Source of the DNA: Stegostoma tigrinum
Lineage: Eukaryota
Assembly: GCF_030684315.1 (NCBI RefSeq)
Contig: NC_081395.1
Coordinates: forward strand, 15,141,542-15,205,541
DNA length: 64,000 nt
Direction of reading: 5' to 3'
The position numbers and the translations under genes were made by a program. Under the pieces are notes generated by a model, which was given only the letters and a program-made list of their open reading frames with translations, was not told where the DNA came from and made no database searches. Positions 18,835-61,890 of this stretch are shown here, one piece after another (the first letter of the stretch is position 1; each line of letters opens with the position of its first letter).

Positions 18835-19745
18835 TTAGAATTGTGAAGAAACAAGCTTAATTAAAGTAAAGGGATATTTAACAATTTTCTTCAATTCTTC
18901 TCTGAACCTAGACTGTGCCACTGCATAGATAATAGTGTTTGTGCAGGAACTCAGACACTGAAGCATGTATCCAGTGTGTTCCATGATGGCAAATGGGTCA
19001 TTGTAATCTGTAAGCATAAACTGAATGCCAGAAAATTGTGTACAAATGAAATGTACAAAAGTTATCATCCATAACAGTATAAAGCAGGTAGAGATAGCCA
19101 GCAATAATATGATTGATTTCCTACGATTCTCCATCTCTGGATCATTAGGATCATCACAATTTTTCATTCCTTGTAGTCCTTTTCTAATACCATTGGCATG
19201 GATAATGTACTGTATGGTCAAAGCATTCAGCAGCACAATCAATACAAATGGTAGAAATGGTGTTAAGGTAATGTCAAAGAAGAAGTATGCTATCCATATA
19301 GGTAAATCCGAAAGATTTGATTTTACACTGCAGAACCATTCTATATTGTCAATGATTTCCTGGTGTTCATTCTCAAAATAGATTGGAATGTTTTCTACAA
19401 CGCTCAATACAAACACAGTGACTATAATTATGGTCGCAGTTCGTTCAGTGCAATACCTTTCCCTCACCTTTTGGCAGCGAATGGCAACCAATCTGTCAAA
19501 TGTGAAAGTAACAGTTAGCCAGACAGAACAATCAATGGCTATGAAAACCAGTGCAATATTGAGACAACAAACTGGTGTTTAGTCCAAAAATGTATAGGAA
19601 AAATATATTCCTTTAATCTCATACAACATGACATCAAATATTATCACCAGTAGATCTGCCACTGCCATAGCAACCAGATAACGTGTGATACATTTAGAAA
19701 GACCACATTTGCCACGGGAGAGAATTACAATCGCCACCAGGTTGC
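18835..19745 (-). pseudogene. GPR139/142-like class A GPCR exon 2, single premature TAA at 19579-19581
   Basis: tgcag|GC acceptor. Reads NLVAIVILSRGKCGLSKCITRYLVAMAVADLL..FLD*TPVC..FTFDRLVAI..DPEMENRRKSIILL..SCTNTIIY..FREE. Spliced length is 326 codons in one continuous frame. Confidence 0.9.
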
Positions 19746-20454
19746 CTGCAAGGGGAAAAAAAACAAAATAATATGGTAAATGTGCTAATAACACACAAAT
19801 GATCAGTTTGAGAGTTAATTTCTATTCCATAGTTCCAAACACAAGCTGGTTTCCTTTTGCTTCAGGTAATTTTGCATATTGATGCTTTACCTTCCACCAT
19901 CTTGGCTTTCCTGATTCCTTTTTTAAAGTAAGCTTTATACCTGTATTCTATCCTCAGTCAGATTATCTCTAGTTGAGAAAAGTCAGCTAATCAGATTTGC
20001 AAATAGCACCACTTTATACATACACAATCTGTAGCTAGTCTCCCACTGCATCCAGTTAATGTTAACTCAACTATGTACAAAGAATACCCACTATGGGGTA
20101 CAGTGACAGTCCCTTGCATCACTTCATGTACAACATGAATATTAAATTCATAAAAAGTTGAGATGACCATTGATGGCAAACTGGCAGGTGGTAAGTGAGG
20201 CATCTTGCTTTCATTGCTGTATAAGAAATTCACAGACAGGCTAAAGCTCTAGAGAAAGGGTTTGGGAATCGCACCACAGCAAAAAGCCATGAGAAAAATA
20301 GGTCAGATTCCAGTGAAGATCATGAAGTCATTCTCAGTCATCCTCATTCACTAATTTTACTTTAGGCATTGTTACTCTTGAATGCTTGACTCTTAACTGC
20401 ATTGTGAGATGACTCAGTTGTATAAAACTGTTTCAAAATCCAAAGGGAGGAATG

Positions 20455-46490: not shown

Positions 46491-46499
46491 TCACTTGAC
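46491..46499 (-). pseudogene. IGHM: IgM TM2 exon coding part (VK*)
   Basis: ttttacag|GTC AAG TGA gives the canonical KVK cytoplasmic tail. AATAAA at 46380-46385 (minus strand). Confidence 0.88.
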
Positions 46500-46630
46500 C
46501 TGTAAAAAGGAGATAAAATGTGGAAACAGAGATTTGAGCCGTGAGGAATTGACTTCTTGGTTTCCGGAAACAAATTAAGATTTTTTTTCAAATGGTTTCA
46601 GTCACATTGAATACAAGTGGATCTTCTCAC

Positions 46631-46758
46631 CTTTAGCAGAGTGACACCTGCGCTGTAGGACATACTCAGGAAGAACAAGATAATAAAGGCGGAAGCGGTT
46701 GTCCAGATATTGTCGCACTTCTCTTCAAAGTCATCAAACTGGATGCGGTCCGAGTTAT
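46631..46758 (-). pseudogene. IGHM: IgM TM1 exon
   Basis: tgtag|AT acceptor, AAG|GTGAG donor. DNSDRIQFDDFEEKCDNIWTTASAFIILFFLSMSYSAGVTLLK carries the CART motif. Confidence 0.93.
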
Positions 46759-49755
46759 CTACAAGATGTAGAGGAAAAACATATGCTCAGATTATTTAAA
46801 AATCCGGATGTGATATCATTGTTATCGTTAGTAAAATTATTGCTGTTGATATTGTTCCTTTCTCCTCTTCCTATTATACATTAGTTCTCGAATTTAGTTT
46901 TCAATGTATCTTTCATGTTATATTAATCACTTATGAATGTATCTTTATTTTATTTTATCTAAAGTCATTGTGCCTGACTCAGAAAATATAATATATTTGT
47001 CTTCAGTCCAGATGTTAAATTATTTTGATTATTGGACATTTGAGAGTTCAGTCATGTCAGACGACGTCTTTTTAACTAACATTTTAGCTTATTCGGTGAC
47101 TAAAGGTTTTGCTATATTGTATTCTAACCTCACATTTTAATACTTTATTTGTGATATGCGCCCTTTGGCCATCATTGATTTCAATCAGTTTCTGTAGAAG
47201 ATATTGCTTTTGTTTGTTTCTACTACCACTAGAGGGACTGATAAATATATTGTCTCAAGTTTTATTTATTCAGTTGAGTTTCCGGAAAAAAAGAACATTT
47301 AAAGATGCATCTAAATTGCATGATACTCTTAACTTTCCAGTACGAATGTCAGTGACTGGGCAAAGGCAGGTGCACGATATTAAAGAGAATCTCTTTTGAC
47401 GCACCTCTGAAGTAGGTAGGACTTGAACCCTGGCCTTTTGTTTCAAAAAGTACAGAATCTCGCTGACACTGCATCACATGAGCCCTGATTTTTGCATGTA
47501 ATTTGCTACCCTTTGGAATAGGATCCCACCGTTTTAAACTGTAGATTTTTCTGGATTTTTACAATTAACCTGCTCAGACACGTGCCCGGGACAAGTGAGA
47601 CTTGAACCCAGACCGTATTCTTCACAGGCAGGGACACCATACCACTGTACCTCAATAATCCATGGCTGTACATATATCTCTTGCATTATGACTGTTAGTG
47701 TTTTAAGTGCATTTATGAATCCAAGTACGTGAACCGGTGTTTATAAGTGTATTTATTTCCGTTTGATTATAGTGTCCATTTTTCCTCTCGTTGCTTGAAC
47801 ATACTTATTCCTTCTTTATTTGTGAATGATTATCTTTTATGAAGTTATACATTCTCAGAAACCTATCATAGCCAATTCCAAAAGTCTGTCTACTACATCA
47901 TCTTCATACCGCCTGAGTCAAAAGACGTGGAATACTTCATCCCCTTATTCGCTAATTTAAATTTCAACTTCATATATATACTATACTTACAAATCAAAAT
48001 GACAAGATAACTGGAGGGGGTCAGTTGTCTAGAGGACGAAAGGATGGAAGATGCATGAATGTAAGTGCGTGTCTGTGTTTTTGTGTATGCTCTTGTGTGT
48101 ATGCATATATAGGGTGCACGTGAGTGTGTTCCTGTCTGTGTGCGTTTAAACTGGCTGAGGATTTGTCTTCGTTTCATTTTTTTTCACATTTTGTATGTCA
48201 TTTCGTTTCTTGAGGTGCTTTGCTCTACTACGCGACTTTCAATGCACCCAAAAAAAATTCTGGAATGAAGGGTTTAATTATAATCATGAAGCTGTTGTTG
48301 ATTGTTGGGAAAAAGAAAACCTGTCTTGTTCACTAATGTTCTTTAGGGAAGGAAATCTATTATCCTTACCTGAATTGGCCTGCATGTGACTCCTGACCCA
48401 CGGCAATATGGTTGATTCTTAACTGCCGCCTGACCAGCTAGGGATGGACAATGAATATTGATCTGACCAGAGGCGCCCAAATCCCATGAGTAAGAAAAAA
48501 GATGAGCGTTATACTGAATTAATAATTTATCAAAGTACCTCATGCAACTCTATAACCAACTTCGTTCATTTGTTCTCAGGCAGACTCTGTATGAAAGTAT
48601 CACCTCAATCTCAAGCATGATCATATTTTGAAACATCTGACGCGCCTACAATTTTAAAATATTGATTATACGAATATATTTTATACTCATAAACCTGAAA
48701 GTTTAATTTAAAAGTTATCAGTTAGCGTTGGTTAAGATGATGGATTTGAGTTGCCAATTGTTAGGATTTTTGAGTCAGAGAGGTCTGCAGCACCGAGAAA
48801 GCCCAACGTGTCTAAACATGTCAAAAATAAGCATCTGCCTATTTCAAGCCAATTTTCTGGTTCTTCTCCCTAGTCTTGCAAGCATTAGCGTCGCAAGCGC
48901 ACATCTAAATAGTTCTTAAATGTTGTGAGATTTTCTGCCTGTACCAACCATACAGACAGTGAGTTGCAGATTACCAGTACCCTCTTGGGGAAAAAAAAAT
49001 CCCTCACAACACCTGCAAACCTCCTGGCCCTCATCTTACAATTTTGCTCTCTGATCATTGATTCCTCCACCAAAGGCCAACGTCCCTTTCTGTCTAACTT
49101 TTTCGATCTCCCTCGTCATTTTATCAATCCCAATTATGTCACCTTTCAATGTTCTCTGTTCCAGGGAAAACACCTCCACCATACCCAGTCTGTCTTCATA
49201 ACTTAAACTCTCGAAACCAGACAACATTCTGATAAGGTGCTTCTCTTCCCTCTCCACTGCCATCACACCCCTCCTGTAATATATTCCAGAACTGCATAGA
49301 ATCCTCTAGCTTTGGTATAGCCAAGGTTTGATCCGAGTCCCCACACGTTCCTTGTACGGAAACGTGGCCAGTATCATCAAGGGCATTGAACCGGGAAAGT
49401 TCTGACAAAGTGGTTTGTCGGGCGACTATTCAATTCAAAAAATATACATTACCGTGAATGTTGACAAACTGCAGCTCTTGCGGACAGTGTCCATTCAAAA
49501 ACTCTTCGATGCTTGGTTTGGAAACTTTGTTATTGAGTTTTGATATTTGTGTATCATTCGTCTCTTGTTTTGGAATCGCGTGCCTTTGCTTCTCTGTGTA
49601 TGTGTGGATCAGTTCATAAAAAATTCTTTGGTGATCGTGTTTTTGTGTGAGTGAATTTTTCCACACGTATGAATGATTCAGTTTCATGCGCTTTCACATC
49701 TGTCGTGGGTTTACGTGTGCCTGTATTTGTGAGAAAAAAAAAGGATACATTCCTT

Positions 49756-49988
49756 AGATAAGAAGGTGCAGAGCTGGATGAACACAGCAGGCTAAGCAGC
49801 ATCAGAGGAGCAGGAAAGCTGACGTTTCGGGCCTAGACCCACCTTCAGAAAAAAGATCTTCTGAAGAAGGGACTAGGCCCGAAACGTCAGCCTTCCCGCT
49901 CCTCTGATGCTGCTTGGCCTGCAGTGTTCATCCAGCTCTACACCTTGTTATCTCAGATTCTCCAGCATCAGCAGTTCCTACTACCTCT
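49756..49988. mobile_element. Palindromic Penelope-pLTR element in the Cmu4-TM1 intron
   Basis: Inverted arms of about 95 bp. TSD ggatacattcctt at 49743-49755 and 49989-50001. Confidence 0.9.
49861..49890 (+). ncRNA. Minimal hammerhead-ribozyme motif (Penelope type)
   Basis: CUGAAGA-A-GGG acuagg CCC-GAAA-CGUC core is intact, but stem I is weak. Confidence 0.55.
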
Positions 49989-50541
49989 GGATACATTCCT
50001 TGTCTGCTTCAGATTAACACGTCCGTGTGCGCGCTAATATGTGCATTTGAGGTTGCATGTGGACGAGAGCGCTAAAATATTTTGTTTTGCACCTGCAAGT
50101 TCCAAGCGACTCATCAACCTGACTTGAAAAAACACGCCATTCCTTCACTTTCACGACGTCAAGATATTTCCCTGAAAGGGTCACACTGCAGCGCATGAAT
50201 ATAGCTGTTTTCAAGAGCATCTCAGGATGGGCAATGGAGCATGAGTCCTACCAGTGTAATTTTTAAAAATGCGAAATATATTGTGATTGTGCGTTCAAAT
50301 GTGATCTTTTTCGATTTCGGCTTTTGAGGGAGGAAGCCGTTAAAATTGTTATATAACTTGAAATGAAAGACATTCAACGTTTCTTTAACGCTCATGTACC
50401 TGGGATGGGAGTGCCGGCTGTACAGACCTAAACCCTGATATAATAGATAATTCAGGCAAAAAAGAACGTCCCAAGCAAAACGGCGGGGTGGGGAATCACT
50501 TAGCGACCGTGTATTTAACACATTACTGGAAGAAAATGCCT

Positions 50542-50547
50542 TTTATT
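50542..50547 (-). promoter_or_regulatory. PolyA signal for secretory IgM
   Basis: AATAAA about 40 nt after the secretory stop codon. Confidence 0.75.
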
Positions 50548-50585
50548 GGTATTGTTGCTGATGATACTATTTAAGATGTGTAATA

Positions 50586-51001
50586 TTACTTACAAACGCA
50601 ATTGAGCACATCTGTTTGACAACAATTGACATCGTCCGCAAATGTAAGAGAAATATTTGCAAAATTCGATTTACCGCTGCATTTATTAACCATCCTGTGG
50701 ATGACTCTCAGTGAAATTGCTTCATGCGCCACCACACAAGAATAAAAAGCACCGCTGGCGCATTCCTCGGCTGCTATCGATAACAAGCTGTACATGAAGA
50801 AGGAGCTATTGCCGTCCTCCGCCATCACCTCGGTGTTTCTGTAGTTTCTGGGATTCACTGGTTTGTCATTGGTGGTCCACTCGACCACAATCTCTCGGGG
50901 GTAGAAACCTTTCATTAAGCAGCCGAGAAAGACGAACTCGTGAGACTCTTCTTCTGGTGGGGGCAGGAGGACAAACACGGACAGTTTCAGAAGACCACTA
51001 A
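50586..51001 (-). pseudogene. IGHM: IgM Cmu4 exon plus secretory tailpiece
   Basis: ggcag|TT acceptor. Reads [46 protein letters not shown]. Internal TM donor G|GTAAA at 50674. Tail is [12 protein letters not shown]. Confidence 0.93.
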
Positions 51002-51465
51002 CTGCCGAAAAAAAATAACTGCCGATAAGCTGGCAAATTCTCGGAAAAGTGAAACTAGTGCTTAAACATAACAGATATCTGGTTAGGGCTTTATTTTCAA
51101 GTTTAGGAGCCATCTGCTTTTCGACTACAGCAGCTGCCCGCAATTCTCTTCACTCATAACTTTTAAGTAATGAAGCGAAAAGACGTACGGATGTAACAAC
51201 TTAAATATTCAGCGAACATGTGTGTGCTGTTGCTCATGCTGCACAAGGGCCCCTTAAAACCCTCGTTCGTCCATTATAATTTCATGTCCTCCTATTGTTT
51301 TCTCCCTCACTGCTTAGTATTAAATGCACAATTTCTGGCTCCAGGCGTTTTAGTTGCTAAATGCGTGATTGTCCTATTGAAACTAGCGCTGAAGAGAATA
51401 GTGGCACCTGATGAACACCAGAAATACATAAAGTTACCAGTATTTTTTTTCAGCCATCCGCTCAC

Positions 51466-51771
51466 CTTCCTCCTTATGGATGGAGGCTCGTAGTTGTTTG
51501 GGCAGATCCTGATGCATCACCACACAGCAGAACTCAGGTCCACTCAACCATGCCTCTGTTGAAATGTTTATTCTGCTGATTCAGCTATCAGGATCCTCTT
51601 CCAGTTGGACAGCAATCGCTGACTTCAAGTGTTTCTCTCCTTCAATCCAAGAAACGTTGATTCCATGAGGAGAATAGGACACAACGCAGGTTAAGGTCAC
51701 GGTCCCCTCGAGCAAGACCTGTTTTATTGACAGCTGCAGTATTGTGACTGCCGTGTCGGTGCAAGAGGGAC
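51466..51771 (-). pseudogene. IGHM: IgM Cmu3 exon with in-frame TGA at 51581-51583
   Basis: catag|GT acceptor, G|GTGAG donor, 306 nt. [77 protein letters not shown] matches shark Cmu3. Confidence 0.92.
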
Positions 51772-51909
51772 CTATGAAACAAGGATTCTAACTCAATCCA
51801 AACTTAACGTTCAGATTTAGATCACCACTCCGTGTTCTGTCAAGAAATAGACATCATTTTTGAGCTATTGTCCACTTTCTCTCAGCCCTGAGTGGTGTGA
51901 CCCATATCA

Positions 51910-52310
51910 AGTAAGAGCAATACAGCAGAACAACAGACCCTTCTGCCCTTTCGTATTAAAACTGTCTTTGCTTACGGGTTCCGCATCCCTATTCCCTTCC
52001 TATTTATGTATTCATCCAGGTGCTTCTTGCATGCGCTACTGTGACTGTTTTCACCAGCTCCTCTGGTAGCGCATTCCAAGCACTCACTGTCTTTGGTATG
52101 AAAATCCTGCCATTCACATGTCTTTTAAACAAATTCCACCCCATCTTGAATCTGTGTCCCCTAGTAATTGACCCCTCCATCCTGAGAAAAGGCCTCATAC
52201 GTTCCACTCCATCCAAGCCATTCACAATCTTATAAACTTCTATGAGGTCACCCCTCAAACTTCTGCATTCAGTGAAAACAAACCAAGGCTATCCAACCTT
52301 TCTTCATTTC
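51910..52310 (-). mobile_element. CR1 3' end in the Cmu1-Cmu3 intron
   Basis: RGDLIEVYKIV..AWNALPEELV. Confidence 0.8.
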
Positions 52311-54042
52311 TTCATATCATTACCAAGAAGAGTAATAATTCCTACGTAGAGTAGAAGAGTAGAAACTGCTTCCTATAAATGTCTTGAGACATAATGCCTT
52401 CAGATTATCTCCCCATCTCTCCAAAATAGTAGGTGAAAAATGTTCACTAGTGTCAGTGCATGTTAGGAAATTCCGCACTCGAACATGGATGATCTTGTAT
52501 AGAACACACCTTGGAACTCAATTCTCCTACTTATGCTCATCACTATGGCAATCATAACAGAAGAAAACAGAACTGTACTCCTGTCTGGTGAATTTTGACT
52601 CCTGTTGCACCTGAAAGTATGCATTTCATTTTGCATACATTTTTATCCAAGCCTGACGGGGGGCAGTTACATTGTTGAAGCAGAGATGTATTTACTTCAC
52701 AACTACTCCAAGTTGATTGTCAATGCACAAGAAATAGCATGAAATGTCCTGGCATCATTGTCATGCCATTGTCGCTGAATAACAATGGGGTTTACCTGAC
52801 ACAATGTTATTCATCTCAAATGGAGTTAATGCTCTACATGAAAATTCTCCTGCTGTAGATTAAAATATTTCATGTCATTTCTTAGTTACTGGTCCAGAAT
52901 CCCCTTAAATACATAATTGAAGATCAGTATACTTCAGATGCTAGGAATATGAAATAAAAAATCAAAAGTTTTGGAAATAGCAGATTGGGCAGTATCTGCG
53001 AAAAGCAAAATTGAATTAATCTTTCTGGTCTGTGTCAGGTCTAATGAAAGGTTGCAAAACTGAAATGAGAACTGCATTACTGATTCTATTGATGTTATGT
53101 GAACTGCTGAATATTTGCACTATTTTGTTTTCATTTTCATTTTCTTTTACTGTTAGATACATCTTTTATTTATTCAGAGGATATTGGCTTGTTGGCTATG
53201 CCAGCACTCAGTACCCATCACTATTTGCTCCCAAAACGATTGTGAGCTGCCTTATCGAACAGTTGAAATCTATTTGGGCAGGACTATGCCCCAGTGACAT
53301 TGAAGGAATGGCAATATGTTTCCAAATCCAAAAGAAGTGTGACCAGGAGATGAAGTTGTTAGGTAGTGTTCCAACGTATTATCTTTTATATGGTCATGTC
53401 TACAAATTTAGAAAATGCAGATGAAAAGGTCTTGGTGAATTTGTTCAGTGAATCTTAGTTGGCACATATTGTTCCTAAGGTGAATCAGTGGTAGAGTGAG
53501 CGATTGTAGATATGGTGCCCATCAAGCTGGCTGGTTTCTTGTCCTAGGTGTTTTCAAACTTCTTGATTCAGCTATGACAAGTTACAGACTCTGCTCACAA
53601 TTTGAATAATTTAGCTGATTCTGAATTTCCTACTGGTATCTTAGTGATCATACTGTACACAGGGCCTCCTGTTTTGATTGAATACATCTATGTCTTTCTT
53701 AATTTTGAAGATCATCCTCAGCATTTCCTTTTGCATAGAAAAGGGAGGGGAGTTATTTGTTTGCTTACAATGTTAATTCTCATAGCATTCATATAAAATT
53801 TGCAACTTTTCTACTGCTCTGGTATTGTTCTTCAAATTTGGAGGTGTATACCCTCTGCTAAGCGTGACATAGAGACAAGAAATGCATGTCCAGCAAAAAG
53901 TATAACATGAAGCCCTGAAATATACATAATCCTAGACTTGATTAGCCAGTGCTTTCGAACAAATGGAATACATATTGTTTACTTATCAATATTTGTCCCT
54001 CCCCTCAATTTCTTCCCCAATTCCTGTTCCAACAACACAAAC

Positions 54043-54336
54043 CTGTCATTCTGATTATCTTAGCCAATCCATTGTATTGAACCTGGCAGCAAATGTTGTT
54101 GCTTCGCACTTCAGACATGGTTAATGTGCTGCTCTTGGTGTAAGTACTCTGCTTGTTTCTCACTGAGGCATAAGTGTTCACTCCAATGGTGATCAGTTTT
54201 CCATCTTTTTTCCAAGTAATGCCAGTGATTTTGGGGCTATAATCCATTGCCAAACAGCCATAGGTCACTGTGTCATCCACGTGAGTAGTTTCACAAGAGG
54301 AGAACAGGGCATAAAGCGTAGGAGGAGAGGCTAGCA
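54043..54336 (-). pseudogene. IGHM: IgM Cmu1 exon (open frame)
   Basis: acag|TG acceptor, G|GTTTGT donor, 294 nt. [40 protein letters not shown] matches the shark Cmu1 pattern. Confidence 0.92.
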
Positions 54337-54766
54337 CTGTGAATAAACAACCGATTAAACAAGTTACCACCAGAGATTTTTGTTGCCAATGTAATAGTTG
54401 TCCCATTTTGTCAAAGGTACAATTTAATATCAATGTTACAATGAAAGTCTCCTATTAAGAGTTTGTATAACCGATGGCAATGTATTCATGAAACTCCAAC
54501 AAGTACAAGATTAATAGGGTGTAGGAGAAGCTGGAATTCGGGGGGCCAGACAAGTGCACTTGGGCATTGGCTTAAATTCCACCATAGCAGTTCATAGAAT
54601 TTACACTCAATTCATCAATTTAGAATATTGATCTATTCTTGGTAATGGCAATGCTGAAAACTATACCTTTGTTAGAAATCTTACTAAGCCCAGAGTTAGA
54701 GATCAGCTGCTTGTGATTCATGCACAAACCTCAGGATGTGGAGAACAGATCTGTGATACATCAAAT

Positions 54767-55093
54767 GGGGCGGCACGGTGGCTCAGTGGTTAGCACTGCA
54801 GCCTCACAGTGCCAGGGGACCCGGTTTCGATTCCTGCCTCTGGCGACTGTCTGTGTGGAGTTTGCAGATTCTCCCCGTGTCTGTGTGGGTTTCCTCTGGG
54901 TGCTCCGATTTCCTCCCACAGTCCGAAGATGTGCAGGCTAGGTGGATTGGCCATGCTAAATTGCTCGTAGTGTTCAGGGGTGTGTGGGTTATAGGGGGAT
55001 GGGTCTGGGTAGGATGCTTCAAGGGGCGGTCTGGACTTGTTGGGCTGAAGGGCCTGTTTCCACATTGTAGGGAATCTAATCTAATCTAATCTA
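54767..55093 (+). mobile_element. HE1-type SINE in the J-Cmu1 intron
   Basis: gggcggcacggtggctcagtggttagc head and (ctaat)n tail. Confidence 0.92.
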
Positions 55094-55509
55094 ACATGAG
55101 CTGGAAAGAAAATCTTTGCGATTCACAACTGTTGCAATCCAAACAATTAAAGCCATCTTGCATGTTGCAAATGAGTTCACTAAGCAAAAATTGATATTTT
55201 ATTCGAGCAGAATCTTTGCACCACAAAAGCACCTTCCCTTCTGCTGGCAATTTCAAATGAGCACCTACTACTGGCAATGTCAGCAGACTGCATGGGAGAA
55301 TATATTTTCAGAAGCCTTTCACAAAAGACTTAAAATTACTATGCAATAATACGTTTTGCCTCCTTAAAAATACAGAATGTTTGCAATCAACAAATGGGCA
55401 CAAAAATTTCCATCGTGAATCAGAACAGAATAAAGGTGTGTGGGATGCAAGTGCCCAGCAAATGGATACAAATTCTGCCTGTGTAGAGCTGGTCAGTTCA
55501 CAAAGTGTG

Positions 55510-58500
55510 GAAGTGTAGAACAGAACACCACTAGAACAAGCCATGTGCCAACCATAATGTCAATCTAAACTAATCCTATCTGCCTGCACATTGTCTGTAT
55601 TTCTCCATTCCCTACTTTTTCATGTTGATGGGATAGTGTAGGGGGATGGGCTTAGATTAGGTCACAGGCTGGCGCAACATCGAGGGCCGAAGGGCCTGTC
55701 CTGTGCTGTATTGTTCTATGTTCTATGTTCTATGAGTCTTGTCAGACTCATGAAAATATGGCTATCGTAGCTGATTCTACCACTTCCCTGGCAGAGTATT
55801 CCAAGCACCTAACACTCTCTGGGAAAAATAACACATGTTCTTCAAACTTTCCTCCCTCCCTCACCACACCTACCAATATCTGACATTTCCACCTGGGAAA
55901 AATGTTCGGACTATCCATCCAGTGATGCTTCTCGTAATCTTATATGCTTTCATCAGGTCATCCTCTCAGCTTCTGATGCTCTAATGAATTTCATTCAAGT
56001 TTCTCCAAACTATACTCATAATTAATACACTCCATTCTAGGCAATATCCTAGTAAACATCTTGCACACCCTCTCCAAAAGCCCCACATCTTTTCTATAGT
56101 GTGGCGAACAGAACCATGCACAACAATCAAAGTGCGTAAAGTTTCGTACAGCTAAAGTTTTGTACAGCTGCAACATGACTTACCAACTTTTATACTCAAT
56201 GCCCCAACCGATTAAAGCAGGCACACGATATGCTTCTCTACCACTTTATACACTGATGTGATCACTTTCATGGAACTATGGACTTGCATTCCAAATTCCC
56301 TGCATATCAATATTTCCAATAGTCCTGCCATTTACACAATACTTCTCTCCTGTATTTGACCTCCCAAAGTGCATCATCTCATACTTGTCTTGATTAAAAT
56401 CCAGCTGCTACTTCTCCAGCCAAATTCCCAACTGATCTATATCCTGCTGTACCTTGTAACAATGTTTCTCACTATCCATAACTCCAGCAAATTTTGTGTC
56501 ATCTGCAATATTACTAATCAGACCACCTACATTTCATCCAAATCATTTATATACACACATATAACAAACAATAGAGGTCCCTGCACTTGATCCTTTGAAA
56601 AATCACCAGTTACAGACATCCAGTCAGAAAAATTCCATTCCACAGCCACATCCTGTCTTCTATAACTAAGGCAATTGTGTATCCAACTTACCAACTCACT
56701 GTGGATTACATGTGACCCAATCTTCTGGACAGCCTTTGATAAGGGTCCTGGTTAACAGCTCTTGTAACATCCATGTAGACAATATTCACTGCCCTGGCCT
56801 CATCAGTCATCTTTGTCGCTTTCATTAGAAACTCAACCAAATTTGAGCAACAAGATCTCCTCCGCACAAAACCATGCTAACAATTCCTAGTAAGTTCATT
56901 CTTTACCGAATGCAAGTAAGTAATTTTCCACAAAAGACTTCTCTAATAATTTCCCCACTATTGATGCAAGACTCAATGGTCTATCATTTCCTGGGTTATC
57001 GCTGTTCCCTTTCTTAAACACAGGAACAAAATTCACTATTCTCCAGTCCTCTGCAACCTTGCCTGCCCTTTGAGAGGAAATGAAGAACTCTGTCAAGACC
57101 CCAGCAATATCCATCCTTGCCTCCTTCAGTATCCTTGGATATATGCCACCAGTCTCTGAAGACTTACCTACTTAATGCTTTCAAGAGCCACAACAACACC
57201 TCCTTTGTCATATCAACATGCCCAAGAATATCAATATACCCCAACCTCATCTTATGTATCCTTCTCTTTGATTAATACAGATGTGAAGTGTTCATTAAGG
57301 ACCTCACCACCTCCTCTAGCTTCACACATAAATTTCATCTGTTGTCCATGAGTGGACCTACTATTTTACTAGCTACGTCTTACTGCAAATACATGCTTTG
57401 GATTCTCCTTAATCTGACTTACTAAGGACATTTAATGGCTGCTTATTTTTCTTTCCTGCTTCCTCTCTATTCCACAAGGACTCCGTCTGACTTCAGTTTC
57501 CCAAATCTCACGCATTCTTCCTTTTTCTCCTTCACTCTTGAAACAGGATTTCCAAATCTTGCCATCCTTTTTCCTTAATCCTCAAAGGAACACGTAGCTT
57601 TTGAAGTCTGATCAATGGCCCTCAAACAACTGCACCAGTCTAATTTCTCCAGTTCCTGCCTAATGTTGATGCAATTAGCTTTCCTCCAATTTGGAACTTC
57701 CATATGAGGTCTGGTCTGAACTTTATCATGACTGACTTAAAACTTACAGATTTACATTCAAAGAACAAAGAACAGTACAACACAGGAACAGGCCCTTCAG
57801 GCAACCATGACTGCGCCAATACATGATGTCTTTCTAAATTAAAAAACATTTCCTTTTACGTGGTCCATATCGCTCTATTCCCTAACTTTTTCATATATTT
57901 GTCAACATGCTTCTTTAATGTTGCGATTGTAACCGCCTCTATTGTCTCCTTTGGCGGCGCATTCCAGCCACTTACCACAATCTGTGTAATATTACATCTC
58001 CTTTACACTTACTATTTTACCATAAACCTATCATCTAGTAGGAAAAAAGACTGTGCCTATCCATTCCATCTGGGGATATCTCAAAATTTTATTTTTAGCA
58101 GGTTTCCCCTCATCATTTGACGTTCAAGTGGAAACTAATCAAGATTTCCCATCTTTCCTCGTAGCTCCATCTCTTAGTCTCCTCAACCTTTCCTCAATCA
58201 CCCAAAGTAGCAGAGGAGTAGCAGGGCTGCATATGGGCTCCTGTGCTTTTCTCCTTTTACTCTTTATTTTTCTTTTTTCTCTTTTTCCTTCCTTTCTTTC
58301 TCTTTTATCCCCTTTTAAGCCTTTTGTGGCAGAGTCGTAGACATCAGCACAGCAACGACAGCAAGTCGTGCATGCAGCATGAGCAACCTCCCAATGGCAG
58401 GAGTCAGCGGCAATAAAGTTGCAACGCCCCTGGTGACCGATGTGAGACTCGCAAGCTGGCTGAACGTCCATTCACCTTTTTTGAGATGGGATATTAGGAA

Positions 58501-60640
58501 CTGGGTGCTTTTTCTTTGCTTTCAGTTCAGTTTCTTTTATTTCACCTGTTGTTTTCTTTAAATTTTGCTTTTGAAACCAAGTTGGGTCACAGAATTGTGA
58601 CGTTGTACACTTTTGACTGTACTCATATTCCTATATTTGGGTACATGTGACAATAAAATCCGATTCTAGTTAAACCCTTCAAACCAGATAACATCGTGGT
58701 AAACTGTGCTTTACCCTCTCCAAAACCTCTAAATCCTTCTTGCAGTGTGGTGAACAGGACTGTGGGTAATATTTCAAATGTGGCCTGACTAAAATTCAAT
58801 ACAGCTGCAACATTACTAGTCAATTTTTATACTCTTTGGCCCACGGCAAGCATTCTAGATGATTTATTGACCACTTTATCCACTTGTGTTGGCACTTTCA
58901 GGGAGTTGTGGATTTGAAATGAACGTCTAGATCATTCTGCAAGCTGATGCTACTAACAGGTCTGACGTTTACTGTCTACTGCCGTTCCGATATTAGATTT
59001 TCCAAAATGCATCATCTCACATTTGTTCAGATTAAATTCCATCTGTTTGTTCTCCAACTGAGTCTCCCATGTATCTATATACTTCTGTATCCTCTGACAA
59101 TTATCCTCACTATCCGCAGCCACCCCAATATTTGTGTCACCTGCAAACACATTAACCAGGCCACCGATATTTTCCTCTAAATCATTTATGTATATTACAA
59201 ACAGGAGCACCAGTGGAAAAGCAACGGGCACAGATCTCCAGTCAGAAAAAAGCCTCTTCCATTGCTGGTCTCCATCTTCTGTAACAAAGTCAGTATTGTA
59301 ACCATCTTGTCAGATGATCCCACTTGAATTCATCTTTTGCATCTGCCTGCCTTAAGGCACCTTGTTAATGGCTGTTCACAGTTCGCAAAATACTCTGCCA
59401 CTGAAACTTCGACCAACTAGCCAGGCTCATTCTCAATACGTCGTCTGGTACCACCCCCTCCCCACTGAGATGATCTGTATGTTGCTTCAAGAAACCTTCC
59501 TGGATGTACCTAACAAATTCTGCTCTATCTAAAGGAGTCTCAGTTGATATTTGGGAAGATAAACTAACCCATTACAACAATGCCATTGATTTTATGTCTG
59601 TCCATAACCTGCTTGTATATCTGTTTCTCTGTCTCCCACTGACTGTCGGGAGGCCTGTAGTACGACTGCATCATTCTAACTGTTCCTTTCTTACTCCTCA
59701 GTTCAATCATATGGCCTCACTGGATGAGCCTTCCAAGATGTTCTCTCTTATTCCAACTGTGATATTATTTTTAATCAGTAATGCAACCCTTTTCTCCCTT
59801 TTGCGCACTTCTCTATCTCGCCTGGTACATCTAAACCATGGAATGTCAAGATGCTAGTTCTATTCTTCAAGTTCTATTTAATCAAGTTTCTGCAATGTCT
59901 ACAAAATTGCAGTTCCATGCACTAATCTAATCTCGAAGCTCATTTGCCTTATATATTACAGAACTTGCAGTAAAATAAATACACTTCAGATCACCAGTGT
60001 GTTCATTAACCGGGCCCTGCCTGTTCTTCCTGTTAACTTACTTGAAACGTCAATCTTTTCGCACACATGTGGCCTACTGCTGTCTTTCCCAAACCCTGCC
60101 CTATCAGTTCAAACACTCCTGCGAGCACTAGCAAACTTCCCCACAAGTATATTTGGGCCTCTTCAGTTTAGGTTTTATCTTTTTGTACAGGTCCCACATG
60201 CCCCAGAAGCGATTCCAATATTGTTCCTATTAAACTTTGCTGAACATCACCCTTCTCTTCAATCGCTCGCTGACTTCCTGCTCTGGTTCCCACTCCTTCC
60301 TGGGTGGCACTAGCAATTCTCCCTGAAGGATCTAGGAGGATTCTCCAATTTAGCTGCAACTGATCCTTCATATGCAGGTCCCTCCTGCCCTTGAGAAGAT
60401 CCTAATGATCCAGATACAAAGCCCTCCCTCCTACACCAGCTCTTTCGTCACATATTCAACTGTGTTACCGTTTTATTTCCAGCCCCACCAGCACGTGGCA
60501 CAGCCATTAGTACTGAAATTACAACCACAGAGGTCCTGCTTTTCAACCTCAACCTAACTCGCTAATTACCTTTGCAGGACTTCATCGCACTCTCTGTCAA
60601 TGCCGTTACCACCAATATGGACCACGACATCTGGCTGTTC
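55510..60640 (-). mobile_element. Stack of degraded CR1 LINEs filling the J-Cmu1 intron (nested plus-strand CR1 tail 55628-55735; Rex1/L2-like tailed insert about 58200-58665)
   Basis: EDWRIVNFVPVFKKG..RPLSLAS and LFVIYINDLEE..FAGDT fragments; multiple 3' tails. Confidence 0.75.
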
Positions 60641-61252
60641 GCCTATCCTTTTCAGGATATCCTCACTCCAGGATGTTGCCATCAAAAATATGTCCAGCCT
60701 ATCAGATAAATGAGTAATTTTGAAAATGAATTTCAGTGTATGATGCTAGGTATGAATGCGACATGTCCCAGAGATTGGAGCAACATATTAAACAGCATAT
60801 CCCTTAGTCTATTCACAGAAAGCACACTATTGACCCGGCCAAACCAGCCGATGTTAGCAAAATACACACAGTGTCTAAAGTTAGATGAATCCTGCGATCC
60901 CAGAACTGTGCACAATATTCGAGCTGTAGCTGAATAATGAATGCATACAAAATTACGCTGATAACCGAATCAGGATTGCCAGTAGGACTCGCAATGGGAT
61001 GCATGTGCTGTAAATTATATGTATTGATATGTAGGGCTCAGGTCTTTCAGGCAGAAAGAACAATTGATATTAAATCTCAGTTGTGCATTCTACAACTCCC
61101 TGGCAGAAGAATTATTTGTAATATTGCAAAGAATCTCAACCAAATCCAACAAACTCACAATTCATGAAAAGACGAATAATTAAAATTTAAAACAAGGATA
61201 AAATTTTAAAAAACCCACCACCATCGGCACTGCGGTAGGGCATATTTCTAAC

Positions 61253-61616
61253 CTTCATTCACTGTCACCATGGTTCCTGGTCCCCAGCAGCCGCTGGCGC
61301 ACTCCCAAGAGTTTGTGTCTTGCACAGTAGTAGATGGCGGAGTCTTCCGTCCTGAGATTTTCCATCTCCAAGAAAAAAATGATTGAAATATCTTTGGATG
61401 CAGTAAATTGATTCTGAGCCTGCGGAGCGTACGAGTTCAAAATTGTACTATAGTAGGAAACCAAAATCTCCAGTGTCTGCCCAGGCATCTGTCGGAACCA
61501 GTTCATGTACGTGTTGTCCAGGTCAAAACCACTTGTTTCACACCGAAGAGTCAGGGAGCCGCCAACATTCGCGGTCTCCGCCGCTGGCTGAATCAGCACG
61601 AATTCTGACTGAGCAG
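61253..61616 (-). pseudogene. IGHV: Germline-joined IgM VH-D-JH exon, junction out of frame (+1)
   Basis: Acceptor ttttccag|CT. Reads [54 protein letters not shown], then 37 nt from Cys to J-Trp, then [11 protein letters not shown] in a shifted frame and donor G|GTTAGA at 61252. No RSS between V and J. Exon length 364 nt is not a multiple of 3. Confidence 0.93.
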
Positions 61617-61753
61617 CTGGAAAATAAAGTTTTCAAGAAAACGGAAGGTTAATCTAGCTGAAACGAATCCTGACTCTGTAACATTCTGGAGCCAACCATT
61701 ACTTAATTAGCACTGCGTTAACAGTGAGAACCTGGAAAATAAAAATTACTTAC

Positions 61754-61799
61754 GGGATAAGAAAGTCAGTAGCAGACCGATTAAAACGGTTGGCCTCAT
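61754..61799 (-). pseudogene. IGHV: IgM heavy chain leader exon (MRPTVLIGLLLTFLS+C)
   Basis: ATG at 61799, hydrophobic signal peptide, phase-1 donor C|GTAAGT at 61753. An in-frame upstream ATG is at 61811. Confidence 0.92.
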
Positions 61800-61890
61800 C
61801 CTTCTTATCATTTGGAGGGAAAGTGTTCTTCCAACAATTAACTGAACAAAGAGCTCCTAGGCTGTTGTAATGTAGTTCCGATGAGTGATG

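What the first reader, a model, noticed from the sequence alone, without database searches (positions are those of the whole stretch)
46491..61799. IgM gene with Cmu1-Cmu3-Cmu4 and no recognisable Cmu2: IgM1gj-like three-domain heavy chain, with TM exons
Seen: exons matching shark Cmu1, Cmu3, Cmu4/sec, TM1 and TM2, all phase-compatible. The 2.27-kb Cmu1-Cmu3 intron holds repeats and no intact Ig exon that I can find. Established: nurse shark IgM1gj is a germline-joined IgM heavy chain lacking the Cmu2 domain and expressed early in development. Inference: this is an IgM1gj ortholog or paralog, or an independent convergent loss, and it retains intact membrane exons (CART motif, KVK).
Basis: partly seen in the sequence, partly recalled or inferred. 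Interest (0 to 1): 0.78.

Follow-up and report, generated by a model that had tools for sequence, protein, structure and literature searches.

The report
Dead three-domain shark antibody gene
This shark antibody heavy-chain gene is pre-assembled and lacks its second constant domain, like the known newborn nurse-shark antibody IgM1gj, but it carries a frameshift and a stop codon and is likely a recently dead member of a separate old lineage rather than that antibody's direct counterpart.

Summary
The anatomy is real. The gene has a leader, a joined VDJ, Cmu1, Cmu3, Cmu4 with secretory tail, TM1 and TM2, and no Cmu2 or remnant of it; 19 of 19 other Cmu1-bearing IgM clusters found in this genome keep Cmu2. 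So it is a pseudogene. It is probably not the 1:1 ortholog of nurse shark IgM1gj: both lie outside the conventional carpet-shark IgM clade, but a forced shared branch has length 0.001, whereas simulated branches of 0.15 or more were recovered in 79 of 80 runs; AU tests do not reject sisterhood (p 0.06-0.30). dN/dS near 0.3 along a long branch, intact splice sites and few lesions point to long function and recent death. Best reading: a second, old lineage of Cmu2-less, germline-joined IgM, now dead. Whether Cmu2 was lost before death is inferred, not shown. The scan noted pre-joined shark IgM genes in other genomes, none lacking Cmu2.

The parts
61754..61811 (-). Leader exon, starts MIRRM as nurse shark IgM1gj does
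   Evidence: GT donor
61253..61616 (-). Joined V(D)J exon, 364 nt, out of frame; 31-nt junction with no recognisable D or RSS; stop TGA 61257-61255 in the V frame
   Evidence: Pfam V-set E 1e-14
54043..54336 (-). Cmu1 exon, open; ends in phase-1 G without the terminal Cys codon, like the horn-shark type and IgM1gj
51772..54042 (-). Cmu1-Cmu3 intron, 2271 nt, no Cmu2 exon or remnant, no gap
51466..51771 (-). Cmu3 exon with in-frame TGA at 51583-51581
   Evidence: spanned by single contigs of runs X1 and X2
50586..51001 (-). Cmu4 exon with secretory tail; internal TM donor after 50675; tail extended by 9 residues and ending Cys-Lys-stop; a conserved Trp is replaced by Cys
46631..46758 (-). TM1 exon, open
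46491..46499 (-). TM2 exon (VK-stop)

Best explanation
This is a broken IgM heavy-chain gene with a pre-joined VDJ and no Cmu2 exon, likely the recently dead remnant of an old lineage of three-domain IgM that is separate from nurse shark IgM1gj. Shown: the exon set, the missing Cmu2, the frameshift, the stop, and a position outside the conventional carpet-shark IgM clade. Inferred: the lineage split off before carpet sharks and catsharks/houndsharks diverged and stayed under purifying selection for most of its history. It lost Cmu2 by genomic deletion while still functional; all C exons are phase 1, so Cmu1 splices in frame to Cmu3. Its V, D and J were joined in a germ cell by RAG. It would have given a fixed-specificity, IgG-length chain in secreted and membrane form, as IgM1gj does in neonates. 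Today any transcript would stop at codon 140.
For: No Cmu2 by protein or DNA profile, while 19 of 19 other Cmu1-bearing clusters found in G000 have a Cmu2 match. Two lesions. Single contigs of runs X1 and X2 cross Cmu3 with 2 and 3 other letters in about 1600, none listed at the stop. In the three C-region trees the gene and IgM1gj both fall outside the conventional carpet-shark clade (support 100/99, 100/99, 99/99) and are not sisters. A forced shared branch is 0.0014 long, against about 0.3 on the conventional lineage between the same basal node and the nurse-shark/own-genome split; simulated stems of 0.15 and 0.25 were recovered 39 of 40 and 40 of 40 times. Identity to IgM1gj (V 56, Cmu1 49, Cmu3 54, Cmu4 68%) is no higher than to other shark IgM. 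Branch dN 0.18, dS 0.47-0.66, dN/dS 0.28-0.39. All splice sites are intact, and three internal deletions (V, Cmu1, Cmu4) keep the frame. Neutral decay of 0.04 per site would leave at most two lesions in 0.1% of simulations, decay of 0.01 in 62%.
Against: The date of the Cmu2 loss is not shown; the introns are too diverged to find breakpoints. AU tests do not reject a clade with IgM1gj (p 0.078, 0.30, 0.18, 0.061). Weak shared traits exist: the MIRRM start, J ending in Glu, and 3 near-exclusive V residues, the most of 30 rows compared; a similar leader start also occurs in a catshark IgM. Only one IgM1gj sequence, as protein, was available, and the gene sits on a long branch. dS is near saturation and the third taxon (L016) is itself a pseudogene. 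Cmu4 is only 65-68% identical to other IgM, where IgM1gj's Cmu4 is 80-85% identical to its closest matches, so relaxation may be older than the lesion count says. The tail differs from related organism B by 5 replacement and 2 silent changes, about the flank's rate. The VDJ frameshift was not checked against reads. The decay simulation assumes one indel per seven substitutions. No intact ortholog was found in protein collections.
Confidence: 0.55

Rival explanations
1. Ordinary decay: a four-domain orphan IgM died first and lost Cmu2 afterwards by a neutral deletion, so a three-domain protein never existed.
For: The gene is dead. This genome holds several broken IgM clusters and loose fragments, for example five orphan Cmu4 copies and a Cmu2-Cmu3 fragment. 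No feature proves adaptation to the loss.
Against: The neutral period looks short (about 0.02 per site or less) against a branch dS near 0.55. None of the other damaged clusters with Cmu1 lacks Cmu2. No Cmu2 remnant exists and the neighbouring exons and splice sites are untouched.
Confidence: 0.18
2. A rearranging (split V-D-D-J) three-domain IgM cluster that was killed recently by an out-of-frame germline RAG join; the Cmu3 stop came later. It was then never a fixed-specificity antibody.
For: RAG joins are often out of frame; in nurse shark light chains 4 of 6 germline joins were in frame and 2 genes were pseudogenes (PMC2193156, passages). It explains the single frameshift lying exactly in the junction.
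Against: The junction shows no significant match to D or RSS sequences of 13 clusters (best shuffle rate 27 of 200), and the J has drifted, which fits an old join. The J-frame reading of the junction has no stop.
Confidence: 0.13
3. The true ortholog of nurse shark IgM1gj, whose shared signal was erased by long branches or gene conversion.
For: The same rare pair of traits in the same shark order; adjacent tree positions; MIRRM leader; AU tests not rejecting. G000 holds no better IgM1gj candidate. IgM1gj Cmu4 is 83-85% identical to conventional IgM, which hints at conversion.
Against: The forced shared stem is 0.0014 on Cmu1+Cmu3 alone, and simulation shows power to see the expected stem. CDR3 length and sequence differ, and the Cmu1 cysteine pattern differs.
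Confidence: 0.1
4. A functional gene whose lesions are assembly errors or are bypassed by splicing.
For: The junction has a short A run where a one-base error is conceivable, and it was not checked against reads. The promoter TATA-like box, splice sites and TM exons are intact.
Against: The Cmu3 stop is carried, as far as the listed differences show, by contigs of two runs that differ from each other and from the window elsewhere. It differs from the conventional codon at all three bases. Two independent lesions are needed to be wrong.
Confidence: 0.04

Closest known systems
Nurse shark IgM1gj (AAK07642.1, P0004; described in reviews PMC5192425, PMC4279169, PMC6795676)
   Same: Fully joined VDJ, no Cmu2, Cmu1-Cmu3-Cmu4 with secretory tail, MIRRM leader start, position outside the conventional carpet-shark IgM clade.
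   Different: Out-of-frame VDJ and stop in Cmu3; only 49-68% identical per domain; no shared branch; different CDR3; extended tail; expression unknown. Whether IgM1gj has TM exons could not be checked.
Germline-joined IgM clusters of cartilaginous fish (VD-J, VD-DJ, VDJ)
   Same: V and J fused in genomic DNA within a single V-C cluster; many such genes are non-functional.
   Different: This one also lacks Cmu2 and lies on another scaffold (C54) than the main IgM array (C55).
Conventional four-domain shark IgM (nurse shark groups; 18 clusters on C55 and one on C54 of this genome)
   Same: Exon order, phase-1 C exons, Cmu4 internal donor, TM1/TM2 ending KVK.
   Different: They have Cmu2 and mostly split V-D-D-J with RSS; the carpet-shark ones form a well supported clade that excludes this gene.

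Membership tests
IgM1gj | Cmu2 absent from the gene | tested here: met
IgM1gj | V, D and J joined in genomic DNA, no RSS between them | tested here: met
   germline rather than somatic origin is inferred from its presence in the assembly
IgM1gj | Joined VDJ in frame, open reading frame through Cmu4 | tested here: not met
   stops at 61257 and 51583
IgM1gj | Common descent with the nurse shark gene (1:1 orthology) | tested here: inconclusive
   Not sisters in four trees, forced stem 0.0014, but AU p 0.06-0.30; leans against
IgM1gj | Expression in neonatal spleen and epigonal organ; pairing with a germline-joined sigma-2 light chain | not testable with these tools
   no RNA holder listed
Elasmobranch IgM heavy-chain cluster | VH, Cmu-type C1-set exons, secretory tail in Cmu4, TM1 and TM2 in one cluster | tested here: met
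Conventional carpet-shark IgM clade | Four Cmu exons and placement inside the clade | tested here: not met

The most novel reading that the evidence does not exclude
Sharks evolved an IgG-like, Cmu2-less, germline-joined IgM at least twice, or keep an ancient family of such genes older than the carpet shark/catshark split. This locus is the fossil of the second lineage, and an intact, expressed ortholog with a longer, cysteine-rich tailpiece survives in close relatives.
Probability: 0.3. Interest if true: 0.7.

Novelty: new variant of a known kind. Interest (0 to 1): 0.45.

Why it matters
The reviews read here name only the nurse shark IgM1gj as a three-domain shark IgM (PMC6795676, PMC5192425, PMC4279169; passages). 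A second, phylogenetically separate gene with the same two traits suggests that Cmu2 loss together with germline joining either recurs or is much older than one species. That bears on why IgG-like shortening evolves and on whether hard-wired neonatal antibodies are a general shark strategy. It gives a concrete locus to look up in related genomes. Its value is limited because the gene is dead here and the order of events is inferred.

Tried and rejected
Cmu2 in the Cmu1-Cmu3 intron, the J-Cmu1 intron or the flanks (about 10 kb on one side of the window, 20 kb on the other): none. Mis-assignment of the second C exon as Cmu2: rejected, it matches Cmu3 at 53-66% and Cmu2 at under 30%. Deletion breakpoints by alignment to conventional clusters: introns too diverged. 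A first impression that the junction retains an RSS heptamer and spacer: not above shuffled controls. Expression: no RNA holder listed; run X16 (guessed RNA) gave only short, mostly repeat, pieces. Organism B (run X11, 54% read) covers the tail and part of the intron at about 92-95% but not the lesions; holes prove nothing. The VDJ frameshift remains unchecked against reads. Intact orthologs in protein collections: none above 62% for Cmu1 among the 150 listed of 191 representatives, none scored among 34 candidates, best 73% for Cmu4 among 11 hits; these are weak negatives. The Atlas returned only generic C1-set clusters. The primary papers PMC29333, PMC2590587 and PMC420240 were not held. Literature searches found no report of a Cmu2-less IgM outside nurse shark; the library lacks most subscription papers. 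No supplements were read.

Full report
Observation. The gene lies on the minus strand. Exon borders, all GT-AG, are leader 61811-61754, VDJ 61616-61253, Cmu1 54336-54043, Cmu3 51771-51466, Cmu4 51001-50675 (secretory form to 50586), TM1 46758-46631 and TM2 46499-46491. The window has no N. Domains cut from nurse shark, horn shark, catshark and bamboo shark IgM match the same-numbered exons at 49-72% identity; Cmu2 queries match only across domains at 32% or less.

Cmu2 is absent. Six Cmu2 proteins give no hit better than E 0.49 in the 2271-nt intron. A DNA profile of 10 Cmu2 exons of this genome finds nothing better than E 0.83 in the window, while the Cmu3 control profile scores 1.4e-49. In G000, 20 IgM-type Cmu1 exons were found, this one included; 19 of the 19 others have a Cmu2 match 1.7-4.3 kb downstream, two of them partial. 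These searches score only the best candidates, so the counts are lower bounds.

The VDJ exon has 364 nt. After the V-end motif YYCAR come 31 nt and then the J motif WGPGT in another frame; the spliced frame ends at TGA 61257-61255, codon 140. Cmu3 has TGA at 51583-51581 where four conventional clusters have Val. Single contigs of runs X1 and X2 span 50400-52016 with 2 and 3 other letters; the listed ones are at 51911 and 51241 and none is at the stop. Only 40 of 110 difference rows were shown, one letter per run and one gap in X2 are unlisted, and one run may be the assembly's source, so this is good but not complete confirmation. The VDJ frameshift was not checked against reads. The secretory tail runs 9 residues past the usual stop and still ends Cys-Lys-stop; related organism B keeps the same frame and stop, with 5 replacement and 2 silent changes.

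Context. The window is G000:C54:15141542-15205541. Eighteen complete IgM C regions lie in an array on C55 (2.79-4.87 Mb), and one degenerate four-domain IgM lies about 1 Mb away on C54. The own conventional clusters group with nurse shark IgM, and L001 groups with a whale shark protein, so the host is inferred to be a carpet shark. No better IgM1gj candidate exists in G000.

Relationship to IgM1gj. Nurse shark IgM1gj was retrieved as P0004. Trees were built on Cmu1+3+4 (26 rows), Cmu1+3 (20 rows), V (24 rows) and all four domains (19 rows without batoid and chimaeras). I left out near-identical C55 copies and fetched 15 of the 19 other Cmu1-bearing C regions. In the three trees with C domains, the gene and IgM1gj both lie outside the conventional carpet-shark clade (100/99, 100/99, 99/99) in a deep unresolved node with horn-shark-type and catshark/houndshark IgM. 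They are never sisters; the V tree is unresolved for this gene. AU tests do not reject sisterhood (p 0.078, 0.30, 0.18, 0.061). The more telling test is branch length. Orthologs separated by the nurse-shark split should share a long stem, because about 0.3 substitutions per site separate the basal node from that split on the conventional lineage. The forced stem is 0.0014. Simulated stems of 0.05, 0.10, 0.15 and 0.25 were recovered 26, 31, 39 and 40 times of 40; a zero stem 15 times, never with support of 0.9 or more. So 1:1 orthology is unlikely. A duplication right after one ancient Cmu2 loss and two independent losses both fit. Points for kinship are weak: the MIRRM start, J ending in Glu, three near-exclusive V residues, and a Cmu1 exon end of the ancestral type.

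History. Pairwise dN/dS against own-genome clusters is 0.18-0.41 in all four domains. A three-point estimate gives the gene's branch dN 0.18, dS 0.47-0.66 and dN/dS 0.28-0.39, like functional branches (0.28-0.32) (simple counting method, dS near saturation, third taxon itself dead). Three internal deletions keep the frame and all splice sites are intact. With one indel per seven substitutions assumed, at most two lesions are left in 62% of runs at 0.01 neutral change per site, 16% at 0.02 and 0.1% at 0.04. Organism B differs by about 5-8% in non-coding DNA, so death probably came after that split and relatives may keep an intact copy. Against this, Cmu4 is unusually divergent (65-68% to other IgM) and the tail has changed at about the neutral rate.

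Mechanism. Shown: architecture, lesions and tree position. From established knowledge: germline joining is ascribed to RAG activity in germ cells, and such genes are expressed early in life (PMC2193156, passages; PMC4279169, passages). IgM1gj is the neonatal three-domain IgM of nurse shark (PMC5192425, PMC4279169, PMC6795676; passages). Inferred: Cmu2 was deleted while the gene worked, giving a fixed-specificity V-Cmu1-Cmu3-Cmu4 chain in secreted and membrane form, and the gene died recently. I give this 0.55; loss of Cmu2 after death 0.18; a rearranging three-domain cluster killed by an out-of-frame join 0.13; true ortholog 0.10; functional gene 0.04.

Literature seen. Passages only of PMC5192425, PMC4279169, PMC6795676, PMC2193156, PMC2435157 (nurse shark groups 6-8 are pseudogenes) and PMC12227049 (nothing on this locus). 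The primary IgM1gj paper (PMC29333) and PMC2590587 and PMC420240 were seen only as reference entries; nurse shark pseudogene groups 6-8 could include an ortholog and could not be compared. Six searches found no Cmu2-less IgM outside nurse shark. No supplements were read. Earlier notes of this scan describe pre-joined shark IgM genes in other genomes, none lacking Cmu2; they did not change the reading.

Verdict. The feature is real and IgM1gj-like in build, but it is a pseudogene and probably not the IgM1gj ortholog. It is a new variant of a known kind. Interest 0.45; 0.7 if an intact, expressed ortholog is found in a relative.

Noticed in passing
window 18838-19821 (-): Single-exon rhodopsin-family GPCR (Pfam 7tm_1, E 3.5e-14) with an in-frame TAA at 19581; probably a pseudogene.
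   Followed up: partly
window 50586-50675 (-): The secretory tail is extended by 9 residues that look like a duplication of the last codons; it keeps a penultimate Cys and has four Cys in all. The frame and stop are the same in organism B.
   Followed up: partly
L021 and L003 (G000:C55:3057300-3074600): A second fully joined VDJ IgM in this genome: junction in frame but J Trp replaced by a stop, Cmu3 disrupted, Cmu2 present.
   Followed up: partly
L017, L016, L020 (G000:C54:14160000-14185700): Dead four-domain IgM whose C region groups with the horn-shark type and whose V groups (100/98) with L037, a V from the part of C55 that I take for IgW; a possible V-family swap between isotypes.
   Followed up: partly
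G000:C55 3430824, 3545900, 3662448, 3779161, 3897727: Five orphan Cmu4 copies about 15 kb downstream of IgM clusters; two were checked and have no other C exon nearby.
   Followed up: partly
L001, L018, L019 (G000:C55:2767700-2796500): Intact Cmu1-Cmu4 with no V found in 20 kb upstream; the tail stop is read through by several codons.
   Followed up: no
window 49753-49956: 98-nt inverted repeat, 90% complementary, 8 nt apart, in the Cmu4-TM1 intron; matches a common short repeat element.
   Followed up: no
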